IMG/VR virus record: IMGVR_UViG_2690315992_000010
Length of the DNA: 35,687 nt
Strand: one strand, 5' to 3'
Source of the DNA: a virus
Lineage: Duplodnaviria > Heunggongvirae > Uroviricota > Caudoviricetes
A model generated the notes under the pieces. It saw only the letters and a program-made list of their open reading frames with translations, was not told where the DNA came from and searched no databases. Below, one piece after another: positions 1,447 to 35,687 of this stretch. Numbering within the stretch: the stretch's first letter is position 1; each line of letters begins with the position of its first letter. A program made the position numbers and the translations under genes.

Positions 1447-1486
1447 GCCCCTATCGTTATAATACGCGGTAGGGGCGTTTTTGTTT
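1447..1486 (+). terminator. hairpin with T-tract between secreted-protein gene and recombinase gene
   Basis: GCCCCTA...TAGGGGC stem around a TTATAATA centre, followed by GTTTTTGTTT. Could be a terminator/attenuator or a recombinase-associated palindrome. Confidence 0.4.
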
Positions 1487-1495
1487 GGAAATGGT

Positions 1496-3175
1496 ATGAA
1501 AACTAAACTGTATTCGTATATTCGTTTCTCGTCTATGCGTCAGAATGATGGTTCGAGTTATGAACGACAAATCAGGATGGCTAGAGAGATTGCGGTAAAG
1601 TATGACCTTGAACTGGTAAATGATTATCAGGATCTGGGTGTATCTGCGTTTAAGGGTGCTAACTCCAAAACAGGGGCGCTATCTCGTTTCCTTGATGCAA
1701 TAGGTAGATCCGTTCCTGTTGGTAGCTGGCTATTCATCGAAAACTTGGACCGTTTATCCCGTGCCGATATTGTCAGTGCGCAGGAGTTATTCCTTTCAAT
1801 CATCCGTAGGGGGATAACCATTGTTACTGGCATGGATAACAAGATCTACTCGCTGGATACTGTTACCGCTAACCCGATGGACCTGATGTTCTCCATCCTT
1901 TTATTCATCCGTGGTAATGAGGAAAGCCAGACTAAGCGCAATCGTACTAACTCAAGCGCACTGATTAAGATTAAAGCTCATCAAGAAAATCCACAAAATC
2001 CGGCTGTTGCAATCGAGGAAATTGGAAAGAATATGTGGTGGACTGATACCACATCTGGTTATGTGCTTCCTCATCCGGTCTTCTTCCCTATTGTTCAGGA
2101 AGTTGTGGAATTACGCAGGAATGGACGGTCAACCGCCGAGATACTGGATCACCTTAACGCGACATACACACCACCACCAGCCGCAAGTCACAAGAGGCAT
2201 TCAAACTGGTCACGGGCAATGATTGAAAGGTTGTTCCATACCCGCGCTTTGATTGGTATCAAGGAAATCTCTGTAGATGGCGTTAAGTATGAGTTAAAGG
2301 ATTATTATCCTCGTGTGCTAGATGACGCTGAGTTTTATCACCTTAAGAAAAGCATTGGTGTTAGAGCATGTAACTTTGGAGACAAAGAAGAAGTTAAACC
2401 TATTCCCTTGCTTAGTGGTGTTGGTCTATTGAAATGTGAACATTGCGGTTCCGCTATGGTTAAGGTGAAAGGAACAAACAGACGGCCTAACCAATATCGT
2501 TATTCATGCGATGCAATGCGCTCTAGTCGTATTGAATGTGTGCATACAAACTGGAGTTTTCGCGGCGACCAATTAGAGAAAGCTGTATTGCAATTGCTGG
2601 CTGATAAAATCTGGATTGCTGAAGATAAGGCTAATCCGGTTCCGGCTTTGAAAGTACAGATTGATGAAATATCACGCAAGATTGATAACCTGATTACCCT
2701 TTCTGCTATGACAGGAGCAACGAAGGAGCTAGCCGATCAGATTACTACCCTCAATAGCGAGCGTGAAACACTCTACAATCAAATTAAGATGGCAGAAGAG
2801 GAAATGTATTCTGTTGACTCTCAAGGCTGGGAGAAGCTCGCAGAATTTGATTTAGAAGATGTTTACAACGAGGATCGCATTAAGGTCCGGTTTAAGATTA
2901 AGCAAGCTCTAAAACGGATCGGGTGTAGCAGGATTGACAAGTACAAAAACTTGTTTGTACTGGAATACATCGATGGCAAGACCCAGAGAGTTGTAATAGA
3001 AAATTCAAGAGGACCGAGGAAAGGCCGGATCTTCGTTGATTTGAAGACTATCAATGATAGGCAGATTCTGGAGAGTAACGGGCTTGTTCTGCATCCATGT
3101 TTAGACATGCTGACAGATAAGAACTGGAAACCAGAAGAAGAAATACCAGGTCCATTACAGGAATTTGGAATTTAA
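1496..3175 (+). CDS. large serine recombinase (putative serine integrase)
   Basis: N-terminal resolvase-type catalytic domain (YIRFSSMRQ...SYERQ, GVSAFKG, ENLDRLSRA), then recombinase domain, Cys-rich zinc-ribbon (CEHCGS...YRYSCD...CVH) and coiled-coil; 559 aa from ATG 1496. Track start 1481 is TTG; ATG 1496 is in frame. Confidence 0.8.
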   Translation: MKTKLYSYIRFSSMRQNDGSSYERQIRMAREIAVKYDLELVNDYQDLGVSAFKGANSKTGALSRFLDAIGRSVPVGSWLFIENLDRLSRADIVSAQELFLSIIRRGITIVTGMDNKIYSLDTVTANPMDLMFSILLFIRGNEESQTKRNRTNSSALIKIKAHQENPQNPAVAIEEIGKNMWWTDTTSGYVLPHPVFFPIVQEVVELRRNGRSTAEILDHLNATYTPPPAASHKRHSNWSRAMIERLFHTRALIGIKEISVDGVKYELKDYYPRVLDDAEFYHLKKSIGVRACNFGDKEEVKPIPLLSGVGLLKCEHCGSAMVKVKGTNRRPNQYRYSCDAMRSSRIECVHTNWSFRGDQLEKAVLQLLADKIWIAEDKANPVPALKVQIDEISRKIDNLITLSAMTGATKELADQITTLNSERETLYNQIKMAEEEMYSVDSQGWEKLAEFDLEDVYNEDRIKVRFKIKQALKRIGCSRIDKYKNLFVLEYIDGKTQRVVIENSRGPRKGRIFVDLKTINDRQILESNGLVLHPCLDMLTDKNWKPEEEIPGPLQEFGI

Positions 3176-25181: not shown

Positions 25182-27086
25182 TTAGAACGATGTTACCCAG
25201 CTACGGCCTCTATTTGGGCGTCTGGCGATGTTTTTACGTTGTGGTCGTGTGATTGGCTTATTTTCTTCGATTTGCTCGTCAGATTGCGATTTAGGAGCTT
25301 CTACGGATTCTTCTGGTTCACGGTTCAAACTATCTTTGATGGCTTCGAGTTTTTCCCATGACATTTTATTGAGTACATGGCGATAACTAGCCACCGCATA
25401 GGTTAGGCAGTCCAAGCCCTCGTTGCGTTGCTGACCAACTTTTACCCAACGTGTGGTATTACCCTGCCGTTTCAACTGTTCAGATAGCAATTGCTCGCAG
25501 TAGTCATCAGGAACGTCACCAATCTGGAAGACCGTATGAGGATCGCTGTCTCTCAAGTTCCGGTTAATCATTTCACGGATCATCGTCTTAAGGTTGTTTA
25601 CGCCCAGAATTTTAAGGGTAAAACCGCCCGTTCTTGTGTCTTTTACCGGAAGGATTGGAGCATCAACATTACTTGCGCCCTTAATGGCGCATAGATTTTG
25701 CCACCTAGTGCAAAAGCGGTAGATCACTTGCGTAGCTCGTCCGTTTGATGAGTCCACGAAAGCGGATAGCATCGGGATTCGTTGACCGGATCGGGTATAG
25801 AATTTTGCTTTCAGGAAGTTGTAAAGCTGGTCATATGCTGGTGATTCGTGGCGTTCGCAGTTCACATCATAGAATGATCGGTGATCAACTACGCATATCC
25901 CTTTACGAGAGATACCCAGCAAGGTAGATTCCAGACGGTCTTTTTGCTGGTCAACTCCACCTACCAGAGCCAAAACATCATCAGGAATATTATCTAAGCT
26001 AATGTCAGTTTTCAGCGTTTCCAGTTCGTCGGCTGTGCGGTCTTCGTTAAGATCATCGAAGGTTTCACCGAGCACCACATTATAGAACGTTGCCAGCGAC
26101 ATATTCGCGTAGCTATCAGCAAAGTCCACCACACACGCACGGATAGAACTAAACGGAGACATAAGGCGGTTAGCATGAAAACCGATTACTTCCGCATTTG
26201 GTTCGGTGGCGACCCATTCTCCCTGAGCAACAGCACGGAGGCGATCTGGTTCTGACCAATCAGTTTCACATGACGGGCAACGGTAAACGGCTGTGTCTGG
26301 ATTCGGCAGTGATTTACCATTGATTACATGCCAATCAAAGAATACTCTACTCCATTCCATTACGTGTTTGTGTCCGCAATGCTGGCAAACGACGTGGTAT
26401 TTTCTTTTATCCGAGAGTTCCCATTGTTGGTTTATCGCCCCATCCCGCGAAGTTGGAGTAGAAGCAATTACGATCCTTGCATCATCACCGAAAGTGGTTG
26501 CGCGTTGTTCCGCTAGCTGGATCGGGTTCCCTTCGTCTGACTCATCAGCCGCATCAACTTCATCAAGAATAATCAAAGGTAGTGTTTTACCGCGAAGATG
26601 TGATGGACTATTCAACGACATGAAATACATGAATGATCCGTTACGAAGCTGAATAATCGATGAGTTGTTAACGGCATTGCGATCTGACTTGTCGGTGATC
26701 ATCGCCTTTAATTCTGGGGTTGCCTCTAATACTGGCTTCACCTTACCCGCGATCCAGCTATTCAACTCGCGGACGTTTGCTTGCAAAACACCTATATTAG
26801 TGGGGTTGCTGGCGATCCTATGAAAGATAATACCGTTTAGCACAAGAGTTTTACCCAACTGCGCCGAGCACTTTAGCACAATTTTTCGCCTATCTTCGGT
26901 GATCGCGTCCATCATCCCACGTTGGAAAGGATGCAATTTAATTAGCGATCCGGCTTTAACACCATCGGTTGCAACTACATTAGCCTCTACCCATTCGCTA
27001 GGTTTCATGGCTTTAGGTGGGCGAATTGCAGCAGAGATATTTCTGAGAATCTTTTTTAATTTTGCCTTATTAGAAATCAGTTTCAT
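25182..27086 (-). CDS. terminase large subunit (GpA family)
   Basis: 634 aa; Walker A-like KCSAQLGKT, IASTPT motif, Cys-rich zinc-finger-like segment (CQHCGH...CPSC), size similar to lambda gpA; GAGGGTAA RBS before ATG 27086. Confidence 0.8.
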   Translation of the reverse strand: MKLISNKAKLKKILRNISAAIRPPKAMKPSEWVEANVVATDGVKAGSLIKLHPFQRGMMDAITEDRRKIVLKCSAQLGKTLVLNGIIFHRIASNPTNIGVLQANVRELNSWIAGKVKPVLEATPELKAMITDKSDRNAVNNSSIIQLRNGSFMYFMSLNSPSHLRGKTLPLIILDEVDAADESDEGNPIQLAEQRATTFGDDARIVIASTPTSRDGAINQQWELSDKRKYHVVCQHCGHKHVMEWSRVFFDWHVINGKSLPNPDTAVYRCPSCETDWSEPDRLRAVAQGEWVATEPNAEVIGFHANRLMSPFSSIRACVVDFADSYANMSLATFYNVVLGETFDDLNEDRTADELETLKTDISLDNIPDDVLALVGGVDQQKDRLESTLLGISRKGICVVDHRSFYDVNCERHESPAYDQLYNFLKAKFYTRSGQRIPMLSAFVDSSNGRATQVIYRFCTRWQNLCAIKGASNVDAPILPVKDTRTGGFTLKILGVNNLKTMIREMINRNLRDSDPHTVFQIGDVPDDYCEQLLSEQLKRQGNTTRWVKVGQQRNEGLDCLTYAVASYRHVLNKMSWEKLEAIKDSLNREPEESVEAPKSQSDEQIEENKPITRPQRKNIARRPNRGRSWVTSF

Positions 27087-27129
27087 GTAATTACCCTCAT
27101 TACGAAATATGAAGGTATTTATTAAATTG

Positions 27130-27158
27130 TTGATATTTTGATAAATACGGGTATTAAG
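27130..27158 (+). promoter_or_regulatory. candidate sigma70 promoter for rightward gene 27175 (divergent from terminase)
   Basis: TTGATA - 16 bp - TATTAA upstream of AAGGGGGGG RBS. Confidence 0.3.
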
Positions 27159-27780: not shown

Positions 27781-27809
27781 AGGTGAACATTCACTTTAAT
27801 TTGGAGAAA

Positions 27810-28043
27810 ATGACTATGACTACTAAAGCTACTCGCGGTCGCCCTGCCCGTTTTAACGCTGAACAGATGGCTGATATTGCCTACGCTTATTATACAGCGG
27901 ATCGTGGTAAGGAAGCGAAAGAACAGATTCTTAGTGAACATGGGATCTCAATCGCCCAATTCTATAAGAATATGAAGAAGTTGGACATTAAATTCTATGT
28001 TCAGATCGGTGATGGTCAGATCGTAGAAGCAACAGGTTTTTGA
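27810..28043 (+). CDS. small helix-turn-helix DNA-binding protein (paralogue 2)
   Basis: 77 aa from ATG 27810 (GGAG RBS); RGRPARFNAEQMADIAYAYY...ISIAQFYKNMKKLDI. Track start 27783 is GTG. Confidence 0.5.
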   Translation: MTMTTKATRGRPARFNAEQMADIAYAYYTADRGKEAKEQILSEHGISIAQFYKNMKKLDIKFYVQIGDGQIVEATGF

Positions 28044-28203: not shown

Positions 28204-28228
28204 AAAAAAGCCCCTGAAATTCAGGGGC
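28204..28228 (-). terminator. intrinsic (bidirectional) terminator after Rha operon
   Basis: AAAAAA-GCCCCTGAA-at-TTCAGGGGC-AAAAATT; its right half is the TTCAGGGGCAAAAAT motif that forms the iteron array at 30.7-30.9 kb. Confidence 0.65.
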
Positions 28229-28236
28229 AAAAATTA

Positions 28237-29070
28237 TTACAGTCCGAAGACTTCCAGAGAGCCAGCATTCTGACGAATCAGCAAAGCAGTGTTATTAATG
28301 ATTGCTCGTGAGTTATTCGGCTGTGGCAATTTCAAAGTTGCGGCCTTTTCTTCTTCAAGCAATCCGAGTTTTACGAGATGCGGGATAGCATCAGCAGTGA
28401 ACTCGATCTGACCGTGTGCCGACATACGAGCGAACATATAGCCAGGAGGAAGCAGATCATAGCCTTTAGGCTTACCAGAAGCATCCAGACGACGCTCAAG
28501 AACACCAGCAGCACATAAACCTTTCAGAATCATTTGTACCTTCGTAGAGCCTCGTTTTTCGCCTAATAAGCGGCTAAGACTGTGTGCATCAATAGCTTTA
28601 CGGATATGAAGATCAACTAATTGTTCTTTTTCTTGAATCAGTTGTTCGTTTGCGGCTTCTAATTCCATTGCCTCACGAATCCAATCGAGCTTAGTCATGT
28701 TTGCGTATGGGTTGACTTGCTGAGAACGCAGTTTTTCATTTTCTTCTTTCAGTCGTTTCCATTCCTGAATAACAACCATTCGACGCTTAACATCGTAACC
28801 AGTGACAAGAGTCAGAGTCATTTCTTCGTCTAGTTGATATTCGTTTTGTTCGCGTCCGTATTGGTCAAAATAGATGACGCGAAACTTCGCGTGATCTTCA
28901 TAACCTAGAGCATTCAACATCTTAGTTATATCAACTTTAACTTTGTGGTGTTCTTTTCCGGTAAATTCAGCGATCTGACGAGAAGACATGGTCAGTGGTT
29001 TGGTGTTATCAACAACCAGAGACACGGAAGCAGTTTTAACAGCAGTATTCATAGTAGTAACAGTATTCAT
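28237..29070 (-). CDS. Rha-family phage regulatory protein / antirepressor
   Basis: N-terminal LTMSSRQIAEFTGKEHHKVKVDI matches the Rha-domain signature; ~150-aa C-terminal antirepressor-like domain. Confidence 0.65.
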   Translation of the reverse strand: MNTVTTMNTAVKTASVSLVVDNTKPLTMSSRQIAEFTGKEHHKVKVDITKMLNALGYEDHAKFRVIYFDQYGREQNEYQLDEEMTLTLVTGYDVKRRMVVIQEWKRLKEENEKLRSQQVNPYANMTKLDWIREAMELEAANEQLIQEKEQLVDLHIRKAIDAHSLSRLLGEKRGSTKVQMILKGLCAAGVLERRLDASGKPKGYDLLPPGYMFARMSAHGQIEFTADAIPHLVKLGLLEEEKAATLKLPQPNNSRAIINNTALLIRQNAGSLEVFGL

Positions 29071-29159
29071 AGTAAAAATTCCCCTTAAACGGTTTAGTGA
29101 TTTGGTCCTCCTAGTTCCGGCATCTCAACCGGAACAATTTTATTTATGATAGAAATTTA

Positions 29160-29492
29160 TTACCAATCGATTTCTACTTGGTCTTCTTCATAATAAGGAA
29201 TCGCATATTCATAACGCCAATTTTCGATGATTTCACGTTCTTCATTAGTAAGAAGGTGATTGTTAACTGGAGTCGCATTGTGATTACCAGCTTCGAATTG
29301 CTCGCGAACTTCCAGCATTGCATGAATACCAGTTAAGGTCATCAGATCAAACGGAACATGCATACTACGGGAGATAGTTTCACGGGATACACCCCAATCA
29401 TTTTCTACATGGCTAGGGGTTACAGAAACGGTTTTGCCGGAGATTTTAACAGTCCAGTCATACAGGGATTTAGTGATGGTAAATTCTTTCAT
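29160..29492 (-). CDS. hypothetical protein
   Basis: 110-aa ORF with AGAGGA RBS, first gene downstream of promoter at 29549-29577. Confidence 0.5.
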   Translation of the reverse strand: MKEFTITKSLYDWTVKISGKTVSVTPSHVENDWGVSRETISRSMHVPFDLMTLTGIHAMLEVREQFEAGNHNATPVNNHLLTNEEREIIENWRYEYAIPYYEEDQVEIDW

Positions 29493-29548
29493 GTTACATC
29501 CTCTTTACAAATCTAGGTCAAATAGGTTCAAAGTTGTCAAGCGCGATA

Positions 29549-29577
29549 ATCATAAAAAAGTCAGAAATTTTTGTCAA
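29549..29577 (-). promoter_or_regulatory. candidate sigma70 promoter (leftward) overlapped by palindromic operator
   Basis: Minus-strand -35 TTGACA (29577-29572), 17-bp spacer, -10 TATGAT (29554-29549). Palindrome TTGTCAA-tacccc-TTGACAA at 29571-29590 overlaps the -35. Confidence 0.4.
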
Positions 29578-29612
29578 TACCCCTTGACAAGACGCCAAAG
29601 GGTTGACCTAAC

Positions 29613-30071
29613 TTACAGCATATCTAAGCCTTCATCGTAACCGTAGAAGCCACCGTGAGAAGAGAAAGCGATTGGTGCGTAGTCTTCGTCTTCCTCATCT
29701 TGTTCTGGGGCTTCCTGAGCGGTTTCTTTACCGTAATTAAACATTGCTTCATCCAGTTCACGAAGAGTCAAGAAGCTACCCAGGTCAATGTCACCGGAAC
29801 GGACTTGAAACGGCAGATCATCACGAACAATAATTGCTGGTAGATTCTGGTACTTTAAGCGTTCTTCATCGGTGAAGACGTTAACAACAATGGTCGGCTT
29901 CTTATTACGGCAAAACGCATACCATGCACTAGAGAAATGGGATTCATCAGAGTTGAAAAGGATGTTATAACCACGTTCACGGAACATCTTCATTAACTTG
30001 TCATTGTGGAAGCTATCAGAATCCAGACCCAGAAGGATAAAAGGAGTAGTGGTAGTCATCTTGTGGTTCAT
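29613..30071 (-). CDS. hypothetical protein with acidic C-terminal tail
   Basis: 152 aa, GAGGA RBS; C-terminus EAPEQDEEDEDYAP; no domain recognised. Confidence 0.5.
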   Translation of the reverse strand: MNHKMTTTTPFILLGLDSDSFHNDKLMKMFRERGYNILFNSDESHFSSAWYAFCRNKKPTIVVNVFTDEERLKYQNLPAIIVRDDLPFQVRSGDIDLGSFLTLRELDEAMFNYGKETAQEAPEQDEEDEDYAPIAFSSHGGFYGYDEGLDML

Positions 30072-30713
30072 AGTGGAAATCCTCTAAAAGAAAGTGAATC
30101 AAACAAATTACACTAGTATTTATAACGAGAATTTTTTATCTATTTGGAAGGGATTGGTATTCAGTCGGGCATAGCCCTCCTTCATAGATTTTGATTAAAT
30201 CATCATCAAAACGAAGAAGTATCTTTAGAATATAAGAATCTTTCTTTCGAAGAAAGAATAATCAGGAAGCAATTTCAGCAACCGCAGGTTGCGATCCCGA
30301 AGGGATAACCAATACCTTTCTAGAAAGTGATTGTTACTCACTTCGTTCGTTTACTAGAATCAGTTATCATCTAGTATTAAAATCCCTTTCTAAGAAAATC
30401 CTTTCAAAAGTGATTCTCGATGCCACGCAGTGGCGTCGCAGACGTTTGAGAGTGAGCGAAGCGAGCGAGCAAACTAGTTAATTCCTTCTAAGACCATCTA
30501 GTATCATCTAGTTTAAATTAGTTGTTACTAGAAGTAATTGGTTAGCGCTACGCGCAGTCGGGCAAAGCCCTCCTAATATCTTTTTGGTTATTTTTGGTTT
30601 TACACATGAGCGTAGCGAATGTGTTATATAATATCTATGCACGCCCGATTCCCCGTTTTTACCCCTCACTAAGTTAATGTTTTATAAAGAGTTTTTCTTA
30701 CCAATCCTTTTCG

Positions 30714-30906
30714 GGGGCAAATTTCAGGGGCAAAAATTAGATTTTAAGGGGCAATTATTGGCATTTCAGGGGCAAAAATGAGGGGCAAAATCACTGTTTC
30801 CCAGAATTTCAGGGGCAAAAATAGTGGGTTTCAGGGGCAAAAATGGGATAGTGGAATCTTGGGTATTTTGGTTCGGGGGCAAAATTCAGAATTTCAGGGG
30901 CAATTC
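30714..30906. repeat. array of ~9 direct GGGGCAA(A/T) iterons (5 copies of full TTTCAGGGGCAAAAAT)
   Basis: Core starts near 30715, 30727, 30749, 30770, 30782, 30811, 30832, 30876, 30897; spacings mostly 12 or 21 bp; non-coding. Confidence 0.6.
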
Positions 30907-30993
30907 CCATCAAATATTTTGATAGAAAATTCTTGTATATTATTTAATCAAAAAATCACCAAAAAGTGGCGTAAGTTAATGATTTAAAAAGAA

Positions 30994-31019
30994 TTGTCAA
31001 AAGGTCTCCGTGCTATAAT
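30994..31019 (+). promoter_or_regulatory. candidate extended -10 promoter (rightward)
   Basis: TTGTCAA at 30994-31000 and TGcTATAAT at 31011-31019. Confidence 0.35.
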
Positions 31020-31099
31020 AGGTTATAAAGGTTGATAATCCTGATCTACCATTTTCAAACAAAAATTTTGATAGTCATTTCTCGCTTAGGTCAAGTGTA

Positions 31100-31128
31100 T
31101 TGACAACTGTCAAGGATTATTTTATACT
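31100..31128 (+). promoter_or_regulatory. candidate strong sigma70 promoter (rightward) with palindromic -35 region
   Basis: TTGACA (31100-31105), 17-bp spacer, TATACT (31123-31128); -35 lies in palindrome TTGACAACTGTCAA. Confidence 0.5.
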
Positions 31129-31263
31129 TTTTCTCACTGGTGGGGGTTGAAATTTTCTAAACAGTCCCCATATAGATGATAAGCAAGAATTTCCACGTTA
31201 TAAATACATGTGTGAAATGATTGTTCACTTCTGAAAATCTCCTGATCCACTGCTAATTCATAC

Positions 31264-31291
31264 AGCACTGGTTAGATATACAGTGCTTTTT
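31264..31291 (+). terminator. intrinsic terminator-like hairpin (possible end of a ~160-nt small RNA)
   Basis: AGCACTG-gttagatata-CAGTGCT followed by TTTT. Confidence 0.4.
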
Positions 31292-31415
31292 CGGTTGAAT
31301 ATTGTACGAATTGATTAATAATTAATCTTCTCTTTAGCAATTCGTGCTCCCACTGATCGGATATACAGTGGTTTTACAGGGTTTTCTGAAAATCATTTTA
31401 TAAATACAAGTGTTC

Positions 31416-31436
31416 AGAGCGAAATGCTCTTTTTTA
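31416..31436 (+). terminator. attenuator hairpin immediately upstream of gene 31471
   Basis: AGAGC-gaaat-GCTCT followed by TTTTTT. Confidence 0.45.
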
Positions 31437-31470
31437 AGAAATTATTAATCCACATGTGAGGAATCGACTG

Positions 31471-31650
31471 ATGGCTAGACCTGTTAAGTTCACTCGTGAA
31501 ATGATTGTTGATATTGCTAAACGCTTTTACAGCGACACTGAGCGAGGCGGGGAAAACTTCTTTAAGAAGGAAGGAATTGATAGAAGCGGATTCTACAAGC
31601 TAATGAAGAAATACGAAATTCAGGTAAAGATTAACGTTCAAGTTTGTTAA
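31471..31650 (+). CDS. small helix-turn-helix DNA-binding protein (paralogue 3)
   Basis: 59 aa from ATG 31471 (GAGGA RBS); ARPVKFTREMIVDIAKRFY...IDRSGFYKLMKKYEI parallels the 27810 protein. Track start 31456 is GTG. Confidence 0.5.
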   Translation: MARPVKFTREMIVDIAKRFYSDTERGGENFFKKEGIDRSGFYKLMKKYEIQVKINVQVC

Positions 31651-31765
31651 TCCACTTTCACTGAGAATTATATGATGGCTTTAAAAAAAGAAAAAGCCTC
31701 CCTTGTTGCAGCAAAGGAGGCTTGAAATGAACAATTAAAACTAACTTTCTACAGGAGTATTTATA

Positions 31766-32710
31766 ATGTTATTTTCCGCTAACTTTTTCACTAACGAAGT
31801 AACCAACGCTAAAGCAGTTATCAAATTTGGCACCGAAGCAAACAAGAAGATTCAGCCGAAAGTTGTTGTTCATGTTTCCTTTGCGCAGCAGAAATCCGCT
31901 TTCGCTGGCTTTAAAGCACATCGTGAAGCACTGATCGCGGCTGGCTTTGGTGTTGACGGTAAACTGCCTAACGGCATTCGTAAAGCAATCGACCGCGTTA
32001 AACCTGCTAAAGACGTTGCAGTAGACCACATCGTTACTTTCACCGTTAAGAACTCTTCTGAACTGTTCCACCTAGTGATTGCTGGTGATACTGCTATCGT
32101 TTCCGCTCCTAACATGGATTTTCAGGATACCGCTGATTGCAACATTACCTTTGGTCGTCGTAAAGAAGTTACCGGAAAAGCTAAACTGAACTTCACCAAA
32201 TCCGGCAATCCTTACTTTGCTGTATTCTTTAACAGCCACGCTACTGAGAAAGAAGTAGTAGAACTGGTTGCATATGAAGGTGAAGAAAAAGCACGTATTG
32301 AATCTTGCGACGCTTTCGTAGAACTGGAAGCACAGGTTAATGCTGTTTCTCCGGTTGCTGTTGAAGATCGTTTCTCTGCACTGGAAGCACAGATCGCAGA
32401 ACTGAAAGCTGCGCTGGAAGAAAAAGACCAGATCATCGAAGCACAGAAAGCTGAGATTGAAGAACTGAAAGCTAAAGAAGTTGCTCCGGTGGCAGTAGTT
32501 GAAAATGCGGCTGATGAGGCCGCAAATGATGAAGTAGAAGTGAAAATCGATGTGATGCGTGATCCGATGGCTGCACTGCAATTGCTTCGTTCTTTTAAGG
32601 GCAAATCTCATTTTTCTAGTGATGCGGTAGACGAGGAAGAAGAACAGAAACGCAATGTTGCAATGCTTCATGATGAAATGTACGGTACTAACTTTTCTTA
32701 CTGCCAATAA
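31766..32710 (+). CDS. hypothetical protein, apparently highly expressed (N-terminal globular part, C-terminal Ala/Glu-rich coiled-coil-like region)
   Basis: 314 aa; consensus AGGAG RBS 8 nt before ATG; codon usage strongly skewed to CTG/CGT/GGT/GAA/AAA/GCT; bracketed by terminators. No family recognised. Confidence 0.6.
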   Translation: MLFSANFFTNEVTNAKAVIKFGTEANKKIQPKVVVHVSFAQQKSAFAGFKAHREALIAAGFGVDGKLPNGIRKAIDRVKPAKDVAVDHIVTFTVKNSSELFHLVIAGDTAIVSAPNMDFQDTADCNITFGRRKEVTGKAKLNFTKSGNPYFAVFFNSHATEKEVVELVAYEGEEKARIESCDAFVELEAQVNAVSPVAVEDRFSALEAQIAELKAALEEKDQIIEAQKAEIEELKAKEVAPVAVVENAADEAANDEVEVKIDVMRDPMAALQLLRSFKGKSHFSSDAVDEEEEQKRNVAMLHDEMYGTNFSYCQ

Positions 32711-33408: not shown

Positions 33409-33966
33409 TTACGACACATCAAATTCATCATCTTCTTCTGGTTCTTGTTCTTCCGGTTCATCCATTAATGGTAATTCTTCTTCCTCGTCTTCTCCCAAAT
33501 CTGCATTTTCGAACAAGTCCCCTACTTCATTTAAACGACGCTCGATGATCTCCCTTAGCTTATTCTTCAATGTTTTCTGGTCAGTTGCAGATTCGAGAAT
33601 TTCTAAAGCGTCGATTGTGGCGATCTGCAAAATAGTCTGTTTCACTTTCCCGCAGTATTCCGCTAGTTGCTGTTCTACATAACCGACAGGAATCAGGAGA
33701 TTCATTTTTTCCTGGTTCTCTCGTTCGGCTGCATCTGCCATTGCTCTTTCTCTGCGGAGACGTTCTTGATCAATCGCTTCTTTGATTGAAGTTTGTTTAA
33801 GTGGGTTAATTACGTTCTTTAGCACCCAATCGCAACCTTCCTTTGCTGGAACACGCCTCTTATTGGTATTGTAAGGTAGTCCCCTTTCTAACCATCGCTT
33901 ACCGCCACCATTCAATGTATAACCATATAAACGGGAAATTTCTGTAAGGGTTAATTCTTCTTTCAT
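33409..33966 (-). CDS. terminase small subunit (Nu1-like) candidate
   Basis: N-terminal HTH segment LTLTEISRLYGYTLNGGGKRWLERGLPY resembles the Nu1 DNA-binding domain pattern; central coiled-coil; strongly acidic C-terminus; GGAGGA RBS; palindromes and GC-rich site just upstream. Confidence 0.5.
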   Translation of the reverse strand: MKEELTLTEISRLYGYTLNGGGKRWLERGLPYNTNKRRVPAKEGCDWVLKNVINPLKQTSIKEAIDQERLRRERAMADAAERENQEKMNLLIPVGYVEQQLAEYCGKVKQTILQIATIDALEILESATDQKTLKNKLREIIERRLNEVGDLFENADLGEDEEEELPLMDEPEEQEPEEDDEFDVS

Positions 33967-34324: not shown

Positions 34325-35104
34325 ATGAAAAACATTATCGCTGCTATCGTGCTTTCTGCTACTGCTTTCGGTGCTGATGCTGCGTCCTTTGATTGCACTA
34401 AGGCTACTACCAAATCAGAGAAGTTTATTTGTGCTAACGAGTCTATCTCCGCACTGGATTCGAAACTTCATGAAGTATATGTTAAAGCTGTTAAGATTGA
34501 TCCATCTCTGAAACAAGAGCAACGCAACTGGAATAAAACTGTTCGTGATACAATGATCAATATCGGGCAGATTCAGCCACTGGAGGCTGTATACAACGCT
34601 CAAATCCAAAACTTGATGAATGTATTATCTAAAGAAGAAACCGCGTCAGAGAGCGATTCAGAGACTTCTGCGAAGGTTGAAGAAGAACAACCGAAACAGG
34701 AAGAAGTAAAGAAACTGAATGTTACCGCGATTTACGCATGTACTACAAAATTTACATGGAAAGTTATCGATGGTGAGGAAACAGAAGCTGTAAAAGATAA
34801 ACTCTACGGAAACAAAACTTTTGATAATAACGGCGGTAAACTTAAGATCAAAATGGTAGACGATGTTCCGGTATCTTTTGTGTATTCCGACAAGTATGAT
34901 GTTTATAAATCAAGTCTCAAGCCATCTAAAGAGAATCCAAACGCAATGGAAGGTAAATCCAAACAGGATACTATTGGACGTGTTAACACTTATAACATCT
35001 GGGTAAGCAAAAAAGGTGACATGCGTCTTGAAGTAATTGAACCAAAATTTGATTCTGAATATAAACACACTCAATTTGCATGTGACATGGTAGACGCAGA
35101 GTAA
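34325..35104 (+). CDS. secreted protein with DUF1311 / LprI-like N-terminal domain
   Basis: Signal peptide MKNIIAAIVLSATAFGADA; SFDCTKATTKSEKFICANESISALDSKLHEVY matches the conserved Cys-containing DUF1311 signature; AGAGG RBS. Confidence 0.55.
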   Translation: MKNIIAAIVLSATAFGADAASFDCTKATTKSEKFICANESISALDSKLHEVYVKAVKIDPSLKQEQRNWNKTVRDTMINIGQIQPLEAVYNAQIQNLMNVLSKEETASESDSETSAKVEEEQPKQEEVKKLNVTAIYACTTKFTWKVIDGEETEAVKDKLYGNKTFDNNGGKLKIKMVDDVPVSFVYSDKYDVYKSSLKPSKENPNAMEGKSKQDTIGRVNTYNIWVSKKGDMRLEVIEPKFDSEYKHTQFACDMVDAE

Positions 35105-35336: not shown

Positions 35337-35687
35337 TTATTTTGGGTTGACTACATTCGGGTTGCCAATTCGCCAGGCTAACTCTTGCTGAGTGATTTCT
35401 GACTGTAAAAAAGCATTTAACAGCAATACTTTAGAGGCGACGCTCAAAGGTACTTCAATAAAGTGATCATGACTATTTAATGGCGAAGGTAACGGGATAA
35501 GCTCGTTATCTTCAAAATAAAAATCAAATGCGGTCAGTAAAGCATCTTTTGCCGCTTCCATCGCTTCAGCGACAGTTTCGCCCTGCGTCAACGCTTCAGG
35601 GATATCCACAAAAGAAACCATATAACCGCCTTCCGGCGCGGGTGTAAGAGTGACGGGATAACGCATAATTTCGACTGTCTCTCGCAT
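35337..35687 (-). CDS. hicB: HicB-family antitoxin, N-terminal domain only; C-terminal DNA-binding domain apparently truncated at junction with phage-like DNA
   Basis: MRYPVTLTPAPEGGYMVSFVDIPEALTQGETVAEAMEAAKDALLTAF... recognised as HicB N-terminal domain (recalled as near-identical to E. coli HicB; not verified). ORF ends ...ITQQELAWRIGNPNVVNPK* inside what should be the first helix of the HTH. Base composition and codon usage look more host-like here. Confidence 0.55.
   Translation of the reverse strand: MRETVEIMRYPVTLTPAPEGGYMVSFVDIPEALTQGETVAEAMEAAKDALLTAFDFYFEDNELIPLPSPLNSHDHFIEVPLSVASKVLLLNAFLQSEITQQELAWRIGNPNVVNPK

What the first reader, a model, noticed from the sequence alone, without database searches (positions are those of the whole stretch)
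28237..30071. Leftward early operon: two unknown proteins plus Rha-type antirepressor
A promoter/operator (29549-29590) drives a 110-aa unknown gene and an Rha-like antirepressor. The upstream 152-aa protein with an acidic Asp/Glu-rich tail has its own upstream region. Small acidic early proteins next to antirepressors are frequent anti-restriction or anti-defence candidates (DNA-mimic-like), and none is recognisable here.
Basis: inference. Interest (0 to 1): 0.5.

Follow-up and report, generated by a model that had tools for sequence, protein, structure and literature searches.

The report
Prophage early operon with orphan proteins
This is the leftward early regulatory operon of an uncharacterised E. 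coli prophage: a real, conserved promoter, a Rha-type DNA-binding regulator and two acidic orphan proteins. Neither orphan looks like a DNA mimic, and one carries a strikingly invariant C-terminal docking peptide.

Summary
Three minus-strand genes sit exactly at the stated coordinates: 152 aa, 110 aa and a 277-aa protein with an N-terminal Rha domain. A sigma-70-like promoter (29577->29549) has its -35 inside a 20-bp inverted repeat, and an intrinsic terminator closes the unit.

The window is a low-GC chromosomal prophage with a serine integrase, inserted in hicB. It is found in 58 of 5,426 complete E. coli genomes, and diverged relatives occur in another enterobacterial genus.

All three genes keep strict synteny across the family and are under purifying selection. 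The inverted repeat is exact in every relative.

The DNA-mimic or anti-restriction reading gets no support. The 152-aa protein is a small alpha/beta domain (weak P-loop-kinase-like fold, no Walker A, net charge -3), followed by a disordered acidic linker and a near-invariant aromatic tail (DDYAPIxFSS..GFYGYDEGLDML). It is a core gene, not an accessory one. The 110-aa protein has no known fold and is swapped for a 48-aa ORF in many relatives.

The most likely reading is a regulated lytic-switch operon whose orphan proteins act by protein-protein docking. Their function remains untested. It is ordinary in kind and modestly interesting.

The parts
30105..30130 (-). Conserved -10-like promoter element upstream of the 152-aa gene (TTATAAATAC at 30116-30125, followed by TAGTG). 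The -35 region is weak and variable.
   Evidence: TATAAATA(A/C)TAGTG does not vary in 18 relatives and is kept in the distant relatives L025 and L027. It is one of four exact TTATAAATAC copies, all within 30116-31766.
29613..30071 (-). p152. Residues about 10-112 form a small alpha/beta domain, 113-129 an acidic disordered linker, and 130-152 a near-invariant tail DYAPIAFSSHGGFYGYDEGLDML.
29571..29590 (.). 20-bp inverted repeat TTGTCAA-GGGGTA-TTGACAA overlapping the -35. It is operator-like.
   Evidence: One copy per prophage. It is exact in all relatives, including L025 and L027.
29549..29577 (-). Sigma-70-type promoter: -35 TTGACA (29577-29572), 17-nt spacer, -10 TATGAT (29554-29549).
   Evidence: 11/12. 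The hexamers do not vary in 20 distinct relatives, while the spacer varies in both sequence and length.
29514..29540 (-). Further conserved half-sites downstream of the -10: TTGACAA (29540-29534, 8 nt after the -10, over the expected start site) and TTGACCTA (29521-29514). The mirror copy TAGGTCAA lies upstream at 29610-29603.
   Evidence: TAGGTCAA occurs only three times in the window. Two copies are here and the third is at the rightward promoter, 31087.
29160..29492 (-). p110: an acidic orphan protein (pI 4.8) with four beta-strands and two helices, ending in ...EEDQVEIDW. It occupies an exchangeable slot.
   Evidence: ORF. AF2 pLDDT 72. No fold match. Eight clusters in the large database. 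A 43%-identical homologue sits in the same slot of the distant relative L025. It is replaced by a 48-aa ORF in many relatives and absent in L027.
28237..29070 (-). Rha-like modular regulator: an N-terminal Rha winged-helix domain (residues 28-108), a coiled-coil-like linker, and a family-specific C-terminal domain (about residues 150-277).
   Evidence: Pfam PF09669 above its cutoff. PHROG 'anti-repressor' families match only residues 16-158. In relatives L007 and L008 the N-terminal module is replaced by a different winged-helix module, while the C-terminal domain is kept.
28210..28228 (-). Intrinsic terminator closing the operon (GCCCCTGAATTTCAGGGGC followed by T6).
   Evidence: It begins 8 nt after the stop codon. 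The hairpin also contains one copy of the iteron motif TTCAGGGGCAA.

Best explanation
This is the leftward early/regulatory transcription unit of an uncharacterised temperate siphovirus of Enterobacteriaceae. Shown here: it consists of two nested units that end at one terminator. The first is a constitutive-looking promoter (a good -10, a weak -35) in front of p152. The second is a strong internal sigma-70 promoter in front of p110 (or a 48-aa substitute) and a modular Rha-type DNA-binding protein. Inferred: the -35 and the start site of the internal promoter are covered by strictly conserved inverted half-sites, so a phage-encoded DNA-binding protein probably keeps it shut in the lysogen. The Rha-like protein is then made only when that block is lifted, and it acts as a lytic-switch regulator. 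Also inferred: p152 is not an enzyme and not a DNA mimic. It is a degenerate P-loop-kinase-like domain tethered by an acidic disordered linker to an invariant aromatic/hydrophobic C-terminal peptide, and it works as a docking adaptor or decoy for a conserved partner protein from host or phage. p110 is an ancestral but dispensable acidic protein in an exchangeable slot, possibly acting in the same way, since it too has a conserved acidic C-terminus ending in Trp.
For: Gene structure, promoter and terminator. Prophage context (gpA-type TerL, portal, capsid, tail, M15 endolysin, serine integrase, hicB junction). Family-wide synteny, including relatives at 31-43% protein identity in a host whose ghrA-ycdX is only 76-84% identical to E. 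coli. Promoter and operator conservation, with variation confined to the spacers. Purifying selection. Architecture of p152. Tail constraint at the protein level: synonymous codon changes with an unchanged peptide, and tail dN 0.14 against 0.66 for the domain in the comparison with L025. p152 is present in all 58 E. coli genomes that carry the prophage region. Modularity of the Rha-like protein.
Confidence: 0.5

Rival explanations
1. One reading: p152 and/or p110 are DNA-mimic-type anti-restriction or anti-defence proteins, expressed early to neutralise host restriction-modification or other DNA-binding defences.
For: Both proteins are small and acidic (pI 4.5 and 4.8). They lie in an early-looking operon and match no known function. 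The p152 N-domain exists as diverged alleles (60-65% identity) in otherwise similar prophages, and the p110 slot is exchangeable. Both features fit an arms race.
Against: There is no sequence or fold similarity to Ocr, ArdA or any other solved protein. The folded part of p152 is nearly neutral (-3), and its charge sits in a 17-residue disordered linker. The conserved feature is an aromatic peptide, not charge. p152 is a core syntenic gene across genera. dN/dS of 0.35-0.41 gives no sign of positive selection.
Confidence: 0.1
2. p152 is a replication accessory factor. It uses its C-terminal peptide to recruit or block a host replisome hub (beta-clamp, SSB partners or DnaB) at the neighbouring iteron-bearing origin-like region, in a phage with no recognisable replication genes.
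For: The gene directly flanks a 1.4-kb non-coding region with 8 phased iterons. None of the window ORFs that were scanned shows a replication domain. The tail ends in x-L-D-M-L-COOH (AFDML, GLQML or GLEML in relatives). That shares the hydrophobic pattern, the acidic third position and the C-terminal location of the clamp-binding consensus QL[S/D]LF (PMC3716654). A disordered acidic linker with a hydrophobic tip also recalls the C-terminus of SSB (own knowledge).
Against: The highly conserved Gln of the clamp motif is absent in every family member. The motif comparison was made by eye. No binding test was possible. The iterons differ in distant relatives while the tail stays the same, which is neutral evidence. 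Adjacency to an origin-like region is weak evidence.
Confidence: 0.15
3. p152 is the true antirepressor or immunity-specificity factor of the lysis-lysogeny switch, and the Rha-like protein is a conventional transcription factor. The variable p152 domain recognises the phage repressor, and the tail mediates its inactivation or turnover.
For: The gene lies between two operator-bearing promoters, leftward at 29577 and rightward at 31100, which share the TAGGTCAA and TTGACAA half-sites. This is the position of immunity genes in lambdoid phages (own knowledge). Its N-domain has discrete allelic classes. The B-type allele is found mostly with the alternative rightward promoter cassette (10 against 3).
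Against: That association is incomplete, is confounded by linkage, and counts some contigs twice. No repressor has been identified. The protein is acidic and has no DNA-binding fold. Known antirepressors share no common fold, so no comparison is possible.
Confidence: 0.15
4. The small ORFs are non-functional or mis-called, and the 'operon' is a decaying prophage remnant.
For: All are annotated only as hypothetical proteins. Some genomes carry deletion derivatives that truncate or fuse p152.
Against: dN/dS is well below 1. The reading frames are intact in more than 40 loci. Synteny holds across genera. The ribosome-binding sites and promoters are conserved.
Confidence: 0.02

Closest known systems
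Rha family phage regulatory proteins (phi80 Rha, P22 ORF201; Pfam PF09669)
   Same: The N-terminal ~90-residue Rha winged-helix domain scores above the Pfam threshold. RefSeq names the homologue 'Rha family transcriptional regulator'. Like other members of the Bro-N/KilA-N/Rha group, the N-terminal module is shuffled: relatives carry a different winged-helix module in front of the same C-terminal domain.
   Different: The C-terminal 130 residues match nothing outside this prophage family. The score is below the NCBIfam TIGR02681 cutoff. The biochemical function of Rha itself is poorly defined (own knowledge), so the name says little about mechanism.
Secondary immunity (immI-type) operons: P22 Pant-arc-ant, P1 c4-icd-ant
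   Same: One or more small genes precede an antirepressor-like gene, and a tightly operator-controlled promoter lies outside the main repressor gene. The small upstream gene is dispensable or exchangeable.
   Different: There are no Arc/Mnt ribbon-helix-helix homologues and no Ant/KilAC domain. No antisense RNA was demonstrated. Rfam gives nothing significant. The resemblance is architectural only.
Acidic early anti-restriction proteins (T7 Ocr, ArdA, lambda Ral)
   Same: They are small, acidic and encoded early.
   Different: No HMM or fold similarity was found. In p152 the charge lies in a disordered linker rather than on a folded DNA-shaped surface.
Proteins that dock through a disordered acidic linker and a hydrophobic C-terminal tip (SSB C-terminus; beta-clamp-binding motif QL[S/D]LF)
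   Same: p152 has a folded domain, then an acidic disordered linker, then a strictly conserved hydrophobic/aromatic C-terminal peptide ending in ...DEGLDML-COOH.
   Different: The sequence matches neither DDDIPF nor QL[S/D]LF, because the conserved Gln is missing. The 23-residue conserved stretch is much longer than either motif. No binding data exist.
Catalytically dead guanylate-kinase-like domains (MAGUK, calcium-channel beta subunit)

Membership tests
Rha family (Pfam PF09669 / TIGR02681) | N-terminal Rha domain above the curated Pfam gathering score | tested here: met
   44.3 bits against a cutoff of 29.9, residues 28-108
Rha family (Pfam PF09669 / TIGR02681) | Score above the NCBIfam TIGR02681 subfamily cutoff | tested here: not met
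   27.7 bits against a cutoff of 45.95
Ant-type antirepressors (P22 Ant, KilAC/ANT, AntA domains) | ANT/KilAC or AntA domain present | tested here: not met
   No such Pfam hit at E<=0.1. The PHROG 'anti-repressor' hits cover only the shared N-terminal module, residues 16-158.
Ant-type antirepressors (P22 Ant, KilAC/ANT, AntA domains) | Binds and inactivates the phage repressor | not testable with these tools
   No repressor was identified in the window. This needs genetics or biochemistry.
DNA-mimic anti-restriction proteins (Ocr, ArdA and similar) | Sequence or fold similarity to a known DNA mimic | tested here: not met
DNA-mimic anti-restriction proteins (Ocr, ArdA and similar) | Folded surface densely covered with carboxylates | tested here: not met
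   For p152, the folded residues 1-112 have net charge -3, and the -11 lies in the disordered residues 113-152. For p110, the net -10 is concentrated in residues 51-110, partly in a low-confidence tail, so that case is inconclusive.
P-loop NTPase / nucleotide kinase | Three-layer alpha/beta fold of the P-loop kinase type | tested here: inconclusive
P-loop NTPase / nucleotide kinase | Walker A motif GxxxxGK[ST] after strand 1 | tested here: not met
   The sequence after strand 1 is GLDSDSFHN, and it varies among relatives (GFNADNYDH, GFALRPHTY).
Beta-clamp-binding motif proteins | QL[S/D]LF-type pentapeptide with the conserved Gln, usually C-terminal | tested here: not met
   The tail ends in GLDML, GLEML, AFDML or GLQML. 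The hydrophobic positions and the C-terminal location fit, but Gln is absent in all members (consensus from PMC3716654).
Regulated sigma-70 promoter with operator | -35 and -10 hexamers at 17 +/- 1 bp, conserved in relatives | tested here: met
   11/12 match. The hexamers do not vary in 20 relatives, and functional variants TATCAT and TAGAAT occur in distant ones.
Regulated sigma-70 promoter with operator | Inverted repeat overlapping the core promoter elements, conserved beyond the neighbouring sequence | tested here: met
   The 20-mer is exact in all relatives, even where the adjacent coding DNA has diverged to saturation at synonymous sites.
Regulated sigma-70 promoter with operator | A repressor binds the repeat and transcription starts there | not testable with these tools
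   Needs 5'-RACE, footprinting or reporter assays.

The most novel reading that the evidence does not exclude
p152 would be a new type of phage effector: a pseudo-kinase-fold adaptor whose invariant 23-residue C-terminal peptide is a short linear motif. The motif would dock onto a conserved host hub such as the beta-clamp, the SSB interactome or division proteins. By this route the phage would either recruit the host replisome to its iteron origin, since it has no replication genes of its own, or shut down a host process. p110, with its own conserved acidic ...EW/DW C-terminus, would be a second decoy of the same kind.
Probability: 0.15. Interest if true: 0.6.

Novelty: new member of a known kind. 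Interest (0 to 1): 0.3.

Why it matters
About 1% of complete E. coli genomes carry this prophage family, and no isolated phage relative has been sequenced. Its early region contains no protein of known function other than one Rha domain. Working out the switch (the invariant 20-bp repeat, the modular Rha-like regulator, the neighbouring iterons and LexA-like boxes) would describe a lysis-lysogeny circuit with no recognisable CI/Cro-type repressor. If the invariant p152 tail proves to be a docking motif for a host hub, it would be a compact, transferable peptide tool and a new example of phage host takeover by motif mimicry. In one strain the prophage also carries the mcr-1 transposon, so whether it can be induced has some practical relevance. 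As it stands, this is an ordinary phage early operon with orphan genes.

Tried and rejected
1. DNA and protein searches of GenBank phages and PLSDB plasmids with the region, p152 and p110 found nothing.
2. Two scans of species-representative genomes with p152 profiles found no relatives.
3. Pfam, PHROGs, NCBIfam and PADLOC gave nothing for p152, p110, the 48-aa ORF or the neighbouring 201-, 86-, 64- and 314-aa ORFs.
4. PDB sequence-profile searches for p152, p110 and the Rha-like C-terminal domain gave nothing.
5. Fold searches gave only weak generic P-loop-kinase hits for p152 and nothing for p110. The afdb50 library was unavailable.
6. Rfam and tRNA scans of the region gave nothing significant.
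7. I asked whether the Rha N-terminal module binds the iterons or the 20-bp repeat. This was rejected, because both DNA elements are unchanged in relatives with a different N-terminal module.
8. I looked for covariation of p152 alleles with the slot gene, the Rha modules or the rightward promoter cassette. The modules reassort almost freely, so no partner could be inferred.
9. I asked whether the exact 20-mer marks a shared regulator across phages. It occurs in unrelated contigs, but the general TTGTCAA-N6-TTGACAA pattern is common and its centre is diverse, so chance cannot be excluded.
10. A search with the Rha C-terminal domain in the large protein database returned only fragments of the same family.
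11. Literature searches found no description of this prophage or of these proteins.

Full report
**Observation.** The stated interval holds three minus-strand ORFs. They are 29613-30071 (152 aa, here p152), 29160-29492 (110 aa, p110) and 28237-29070 (277 aa). Each is preceded by a Shine-Dalgarno-like sequence.

The consensus scan finds TTGACA-17-TATGAT (11/12) on the minus strand at 29577->29549. It also finds an intrinsic-terminator-like hairpin with a T6 run at 28228-28210, 8 nt after the last stop codon. No terminator-like site lies between p152 and the internal promoter.

The number of promoter-like hits in the region equals the shuffle expectation. The scan alone is therefore not evidence, and the case for the promoter rests on conservation (below).

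The 277-aa protein matches Pfam Phage_pRha above its gathering score, over residues 28-108 only. PHROG families labelled 'anti-repressor' match only residues 16-158.

**Context.** The window is a prophage:
- It has a gpA-type large terminase (25182-27086), portal, capsid and tail genes and an M15 endolysin.
- A large serine recombinase lies at 1481-3175.
- A disrupted hicB gene sits at the right end.
- Its GC content is 41.5%.

The 4.8-kb region around the finding has no counterpart among 50,697 phage records. The best terminase match is only 43% identical. The region does occur on the chromosome of 58 of 5,426 complete E. coli genomes, where RefSeq annotates the genes as 'hypothetical protein' or 'Rha family transcriptional regulator'.

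The early region is small:
- Two rightward genes (201 and 86 aa) converge on the operon.
- Left of the terminase lie the structural genes.
- Right of p152 is a 1.4-kb stretch without genes, followed by rightward 64-aa and 314-aa genes.

**Family and synteny.** p152 belongs to a tiny orphan family. There are 74 clusters at 90% identity, all from E. coli or Shigella. A profile search of 1.84 billion representative proteins found only about five full-length 50%-identity clusters. p110 has eight clusters.

Every context examined is the same prophage family with the same gene order. This includes relatives in which p152 is 31-37% identical and p110 is 43% identical. One of these relatives sits in a host whose ghrA-ycdX flank is only 76-84% identical to E. 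coli, which points to another enterobacterial genus.

p152 is present wherever the prophage region is present, apart from obvious deletion derivatives. p110 is ancestral but dispensable. Many relatives carry a 48-aa ORF in its place, and one distant relative has nothing there.

Pairwise dN/dS is 0.35-0.41 for p152, 0.13-0.32 for p110 and 0.30 for the Rha-like gene. These are real genes.

**Promoter and operator.** In 20 relatives, no two of which have the same intergenic sequence, several elements never vary:
- the -35 and the -10;
- the 7-bp arms of TTGTCAA-GGGGTA-TTGACAA (29571-29590, overlapping the -35);
- a TTGACA(A) element 8 nt after the -10.

A flanking pair, TAGGTCAA upstream and TTGACCTA downstream, is also strongly conserved. 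Substitutions and a 1-nt length change fall in the spacer and the loops.

In the distant relatives the neighbouring coding DNA is saturated at synonymous sites. There the 20-mer is still exact and the -10 is TATCAT or TAGAAT. This supports a real promoter with an operator-like element.

TAGGTCAA occurs only three times in the window. The third copy is at a rightward promoter (31100-31128, TTGACA-17-TATACT) that also carries TTGACAAcTGTCAA. One factor may therefore control both promoters in this phage.

Three caveats apply:
- The intergenic block lies between freely reassorting modules and may also be kept as a recombination junction.
- The exact 20-mer turns up in about 3 unrelated viral contigs and about 14 unrelated metagenomic contigs with GC 37-67%. 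There it is usually the core of divergent promoters next to small Cro-like genes.
- The degenerate pattern TTGTCAA-N6-TTGACAA is common in viral contigs, has diverse centres and is enriched for flanking -10 hexamers. Those exact matches may therefore be chance within a large pool of back-to-back -35 promoters. I leave this unexplained.

p152 has its own conserved upstream element, TATAAATA(A/C)TAGTG, 45 nt before the ATG in all relatives. The -35 region there is poorly conserved.

There is no Walker A motif. The loop after strand 1 reads GLDSDSFHN and varies among relatives. The folded part has net charge -3, and residues 113-152 carry -11.

The most conserved part of the protein is the last 23 residues, DYAPI(A/C)FSS(H/Q)(G/N)(G/S)FYGYDEGL(D/E)ML. 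The motif survives in the 31-37% identical relatives as DDDDYAPVVFSSNGCGYYGYNEAFDML and DDDYEPVVFYANDSYYNDGLQML.

Codons in the tail differ synonymously between relatives. Against L025, the tail has dN 0.14 and the domain 0.66. The constraint is therefore on the peptide.

A variable domain, an acidic disordered linker and an invariant hydrophobic/aromatic tip is the architecture of proteins that dock on a partner through a short linear motif. The last five residues (GLDML, AFDML, GLQML) share the hydrophobic pattern and C-terminal location of the beta-clamp motif QL[S/D]LF. They lack its conserved Gln. This is a lead, not a finding.

**The Rha-like protein.** Relatives replace the N-terminal Rha module with a different winged-helix module and keep the C-terminal ~130 residues. 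That C-terminal domain has only faint winged-helix matches and no relatives outside the family. 'Antirepressor' is therefore a label borrowed from the N-terminal module. No Ant or KilAC domain is present.

**Interpretation.** The operon description is right. The DNA-mimic idea is not supported, for three reasons:
- neither protein shows a mimic fold;
- the charge of p152 is in a disordered linker;
- p152 is a core gene.

Anti-defence activity by some other mechanism cannot be excluded. My preferred reading is a repressor-controlled lytic-switch operon whose orphan proteins act by protein docking. None can be separated further without experiments.

**Verdict.** This is an ordinary kind of locus in an unstudied prophage family. 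It has one feature worth a bench test, the invariant p152 tail, and a well-supported regulated promoter. Interest 0.3.

Noticed in passing
window 30709-30908 and 28220-28230: There is an iteron-like array: eight copies of TTCAGGGGCAA(AA), mostly 21-22 bp apart, inside a 1.4-kb gene-free stretch (0.57 matches expected by chance). A ninth copy sits in the terminator hairpin after the Rha-like gene. The motif is absent from the distant relatives L025 and L027. It may be an origin or a packaging-protein binding site.
   Followed up: partly
window 30116-30125(-), 31198-31207(+), 31398-31407(+), 31757-31766(-); 27115-27124(-), 27139-27148(+): TTATAAATAC, extended as TTATAAATACnnSTGT, occurs four times exactly, all within 1.65 kb of the early region. 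Two one-mismatch copies form an inverted pair between the terminase gene and the divergent 201-aa gene. Most copies lie 27-49 nt upstream of a start codon, so this may be a shared promoter -10/start element or a regulator site.
   Followed up: partly
window 31266-31285 and 31351-31370: Two 20-bp palindromes, CACTG-N10-CAGTG, lie 85 bp apart between the rightward promoters and the 64-aa gene. By eye they match the LexA-box consensus at 15/20 and 13/20 positions, which hints at direct SOS control. They are absent from the alternative cassette in L002-type relatives.
   Followed up: partly
window 30890-31398: The rightward promoter region (TAGGTCAA..TTGACAAcTGTCAA, -10 TATACT at 31123-31128) is an exchangeable cassette. 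Many relatives carry an unrelated sequence there, with TTGACA-N17-TGGTATAAT and GTGTAGG repeats. It behaves like an immunity-type module, yet no protein gene is annotated in it.
   Followed up: partly
window 31398-31437: A terminator-like hairpin (31416-31430 followed by T6) lies just downstream of the TTATAAATAC copy at 31398. Transcripts from the upstream promoters (31100, 31198) would meet it. A start at the 31398 element would fall inside the hairpin and bypass it. This could be an attenuation or anti-termination arrangement ahead of the 64-aa gene.
   Followed up: no
window 27783-28043(+) and 31456-31650(+): The 86-aa and 64-aa ORFs are paralogues (34% identity, pairwise E 1e-9), sharing RPxxF...FYKxMKK. 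The 201-aa ORF may contain weak copies of the same unit. They are candidates for the unidentified DNA-binding regulators of the switch.
   Followed up: partly
window 33409-33966(-): A small-terminase-like ORF (PHROG 57, E 7e-11, with an Nu1-like N-terminus) lies 6.3 kb from the large terminase gene, on the far side of the early region. This is an unusual separation of the two packaging genes.
   Followed up: partly
window 35337-35687(-), 1481-3175(+); L001: The prophage interrupts hicB. The HicB sequence diverges after ...QQELA and ends in phage-derived codons. The phage encodes a large serine recombinase. Other relatives sit at ghrA-ycdX instead. In strain PE15 an ISApl1-mcr-1-pap2-ISApl1 transposon is inserted in this prophage to the right of the 314-aa gene.
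   Followed up: partly
L036, L045, L046, L048-L074 (non-family loci): The exact 20-mer TTGTCAAGGGGTATTGACAA occurs in unrelated phage-like contigs with GC 37-67%. It usually has -10-like hexamers 16-18 bp away, often on both sides, next to small Cro/XRE-like genes, so it forms a back-to-back -35 bidirectional promoter core. Whether the identical centre GGGGTA is chance or a shared constraint is unresolved.
   Followed up: partly
window 29590-29617 (minus-strand transcript): A possible RNA hairpin, ACCCUUUG-loop-CAAGGGGU, starts 9 nt after the p152 stop codon and runs into the left half of the 20-bp repeat. In relative L025 a U-to-C change converts the single G.U pair into G-C. It was seen by eye only and was not folded.
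   Followed up: no
window 34325-35104(+): A 259-aa signal-peptide protein has an LprI (lysozyme-inhibitor) domain and a strong PHROG match (phrog_14799, E 4e-115). It lies near the right prophage end and is probably a lysogenic-conversion gene.
   Followed up: no
window 31757-31694(-): A minus-strand TTATAAATAC copy overlaps the start codon of the 314-aa gene and is followed about 35 nt downstream by a strong minus-strand terminator (31723-31694, 12-bp stem). This could produce a short antisense or divergent RNA.
   Followed up: no
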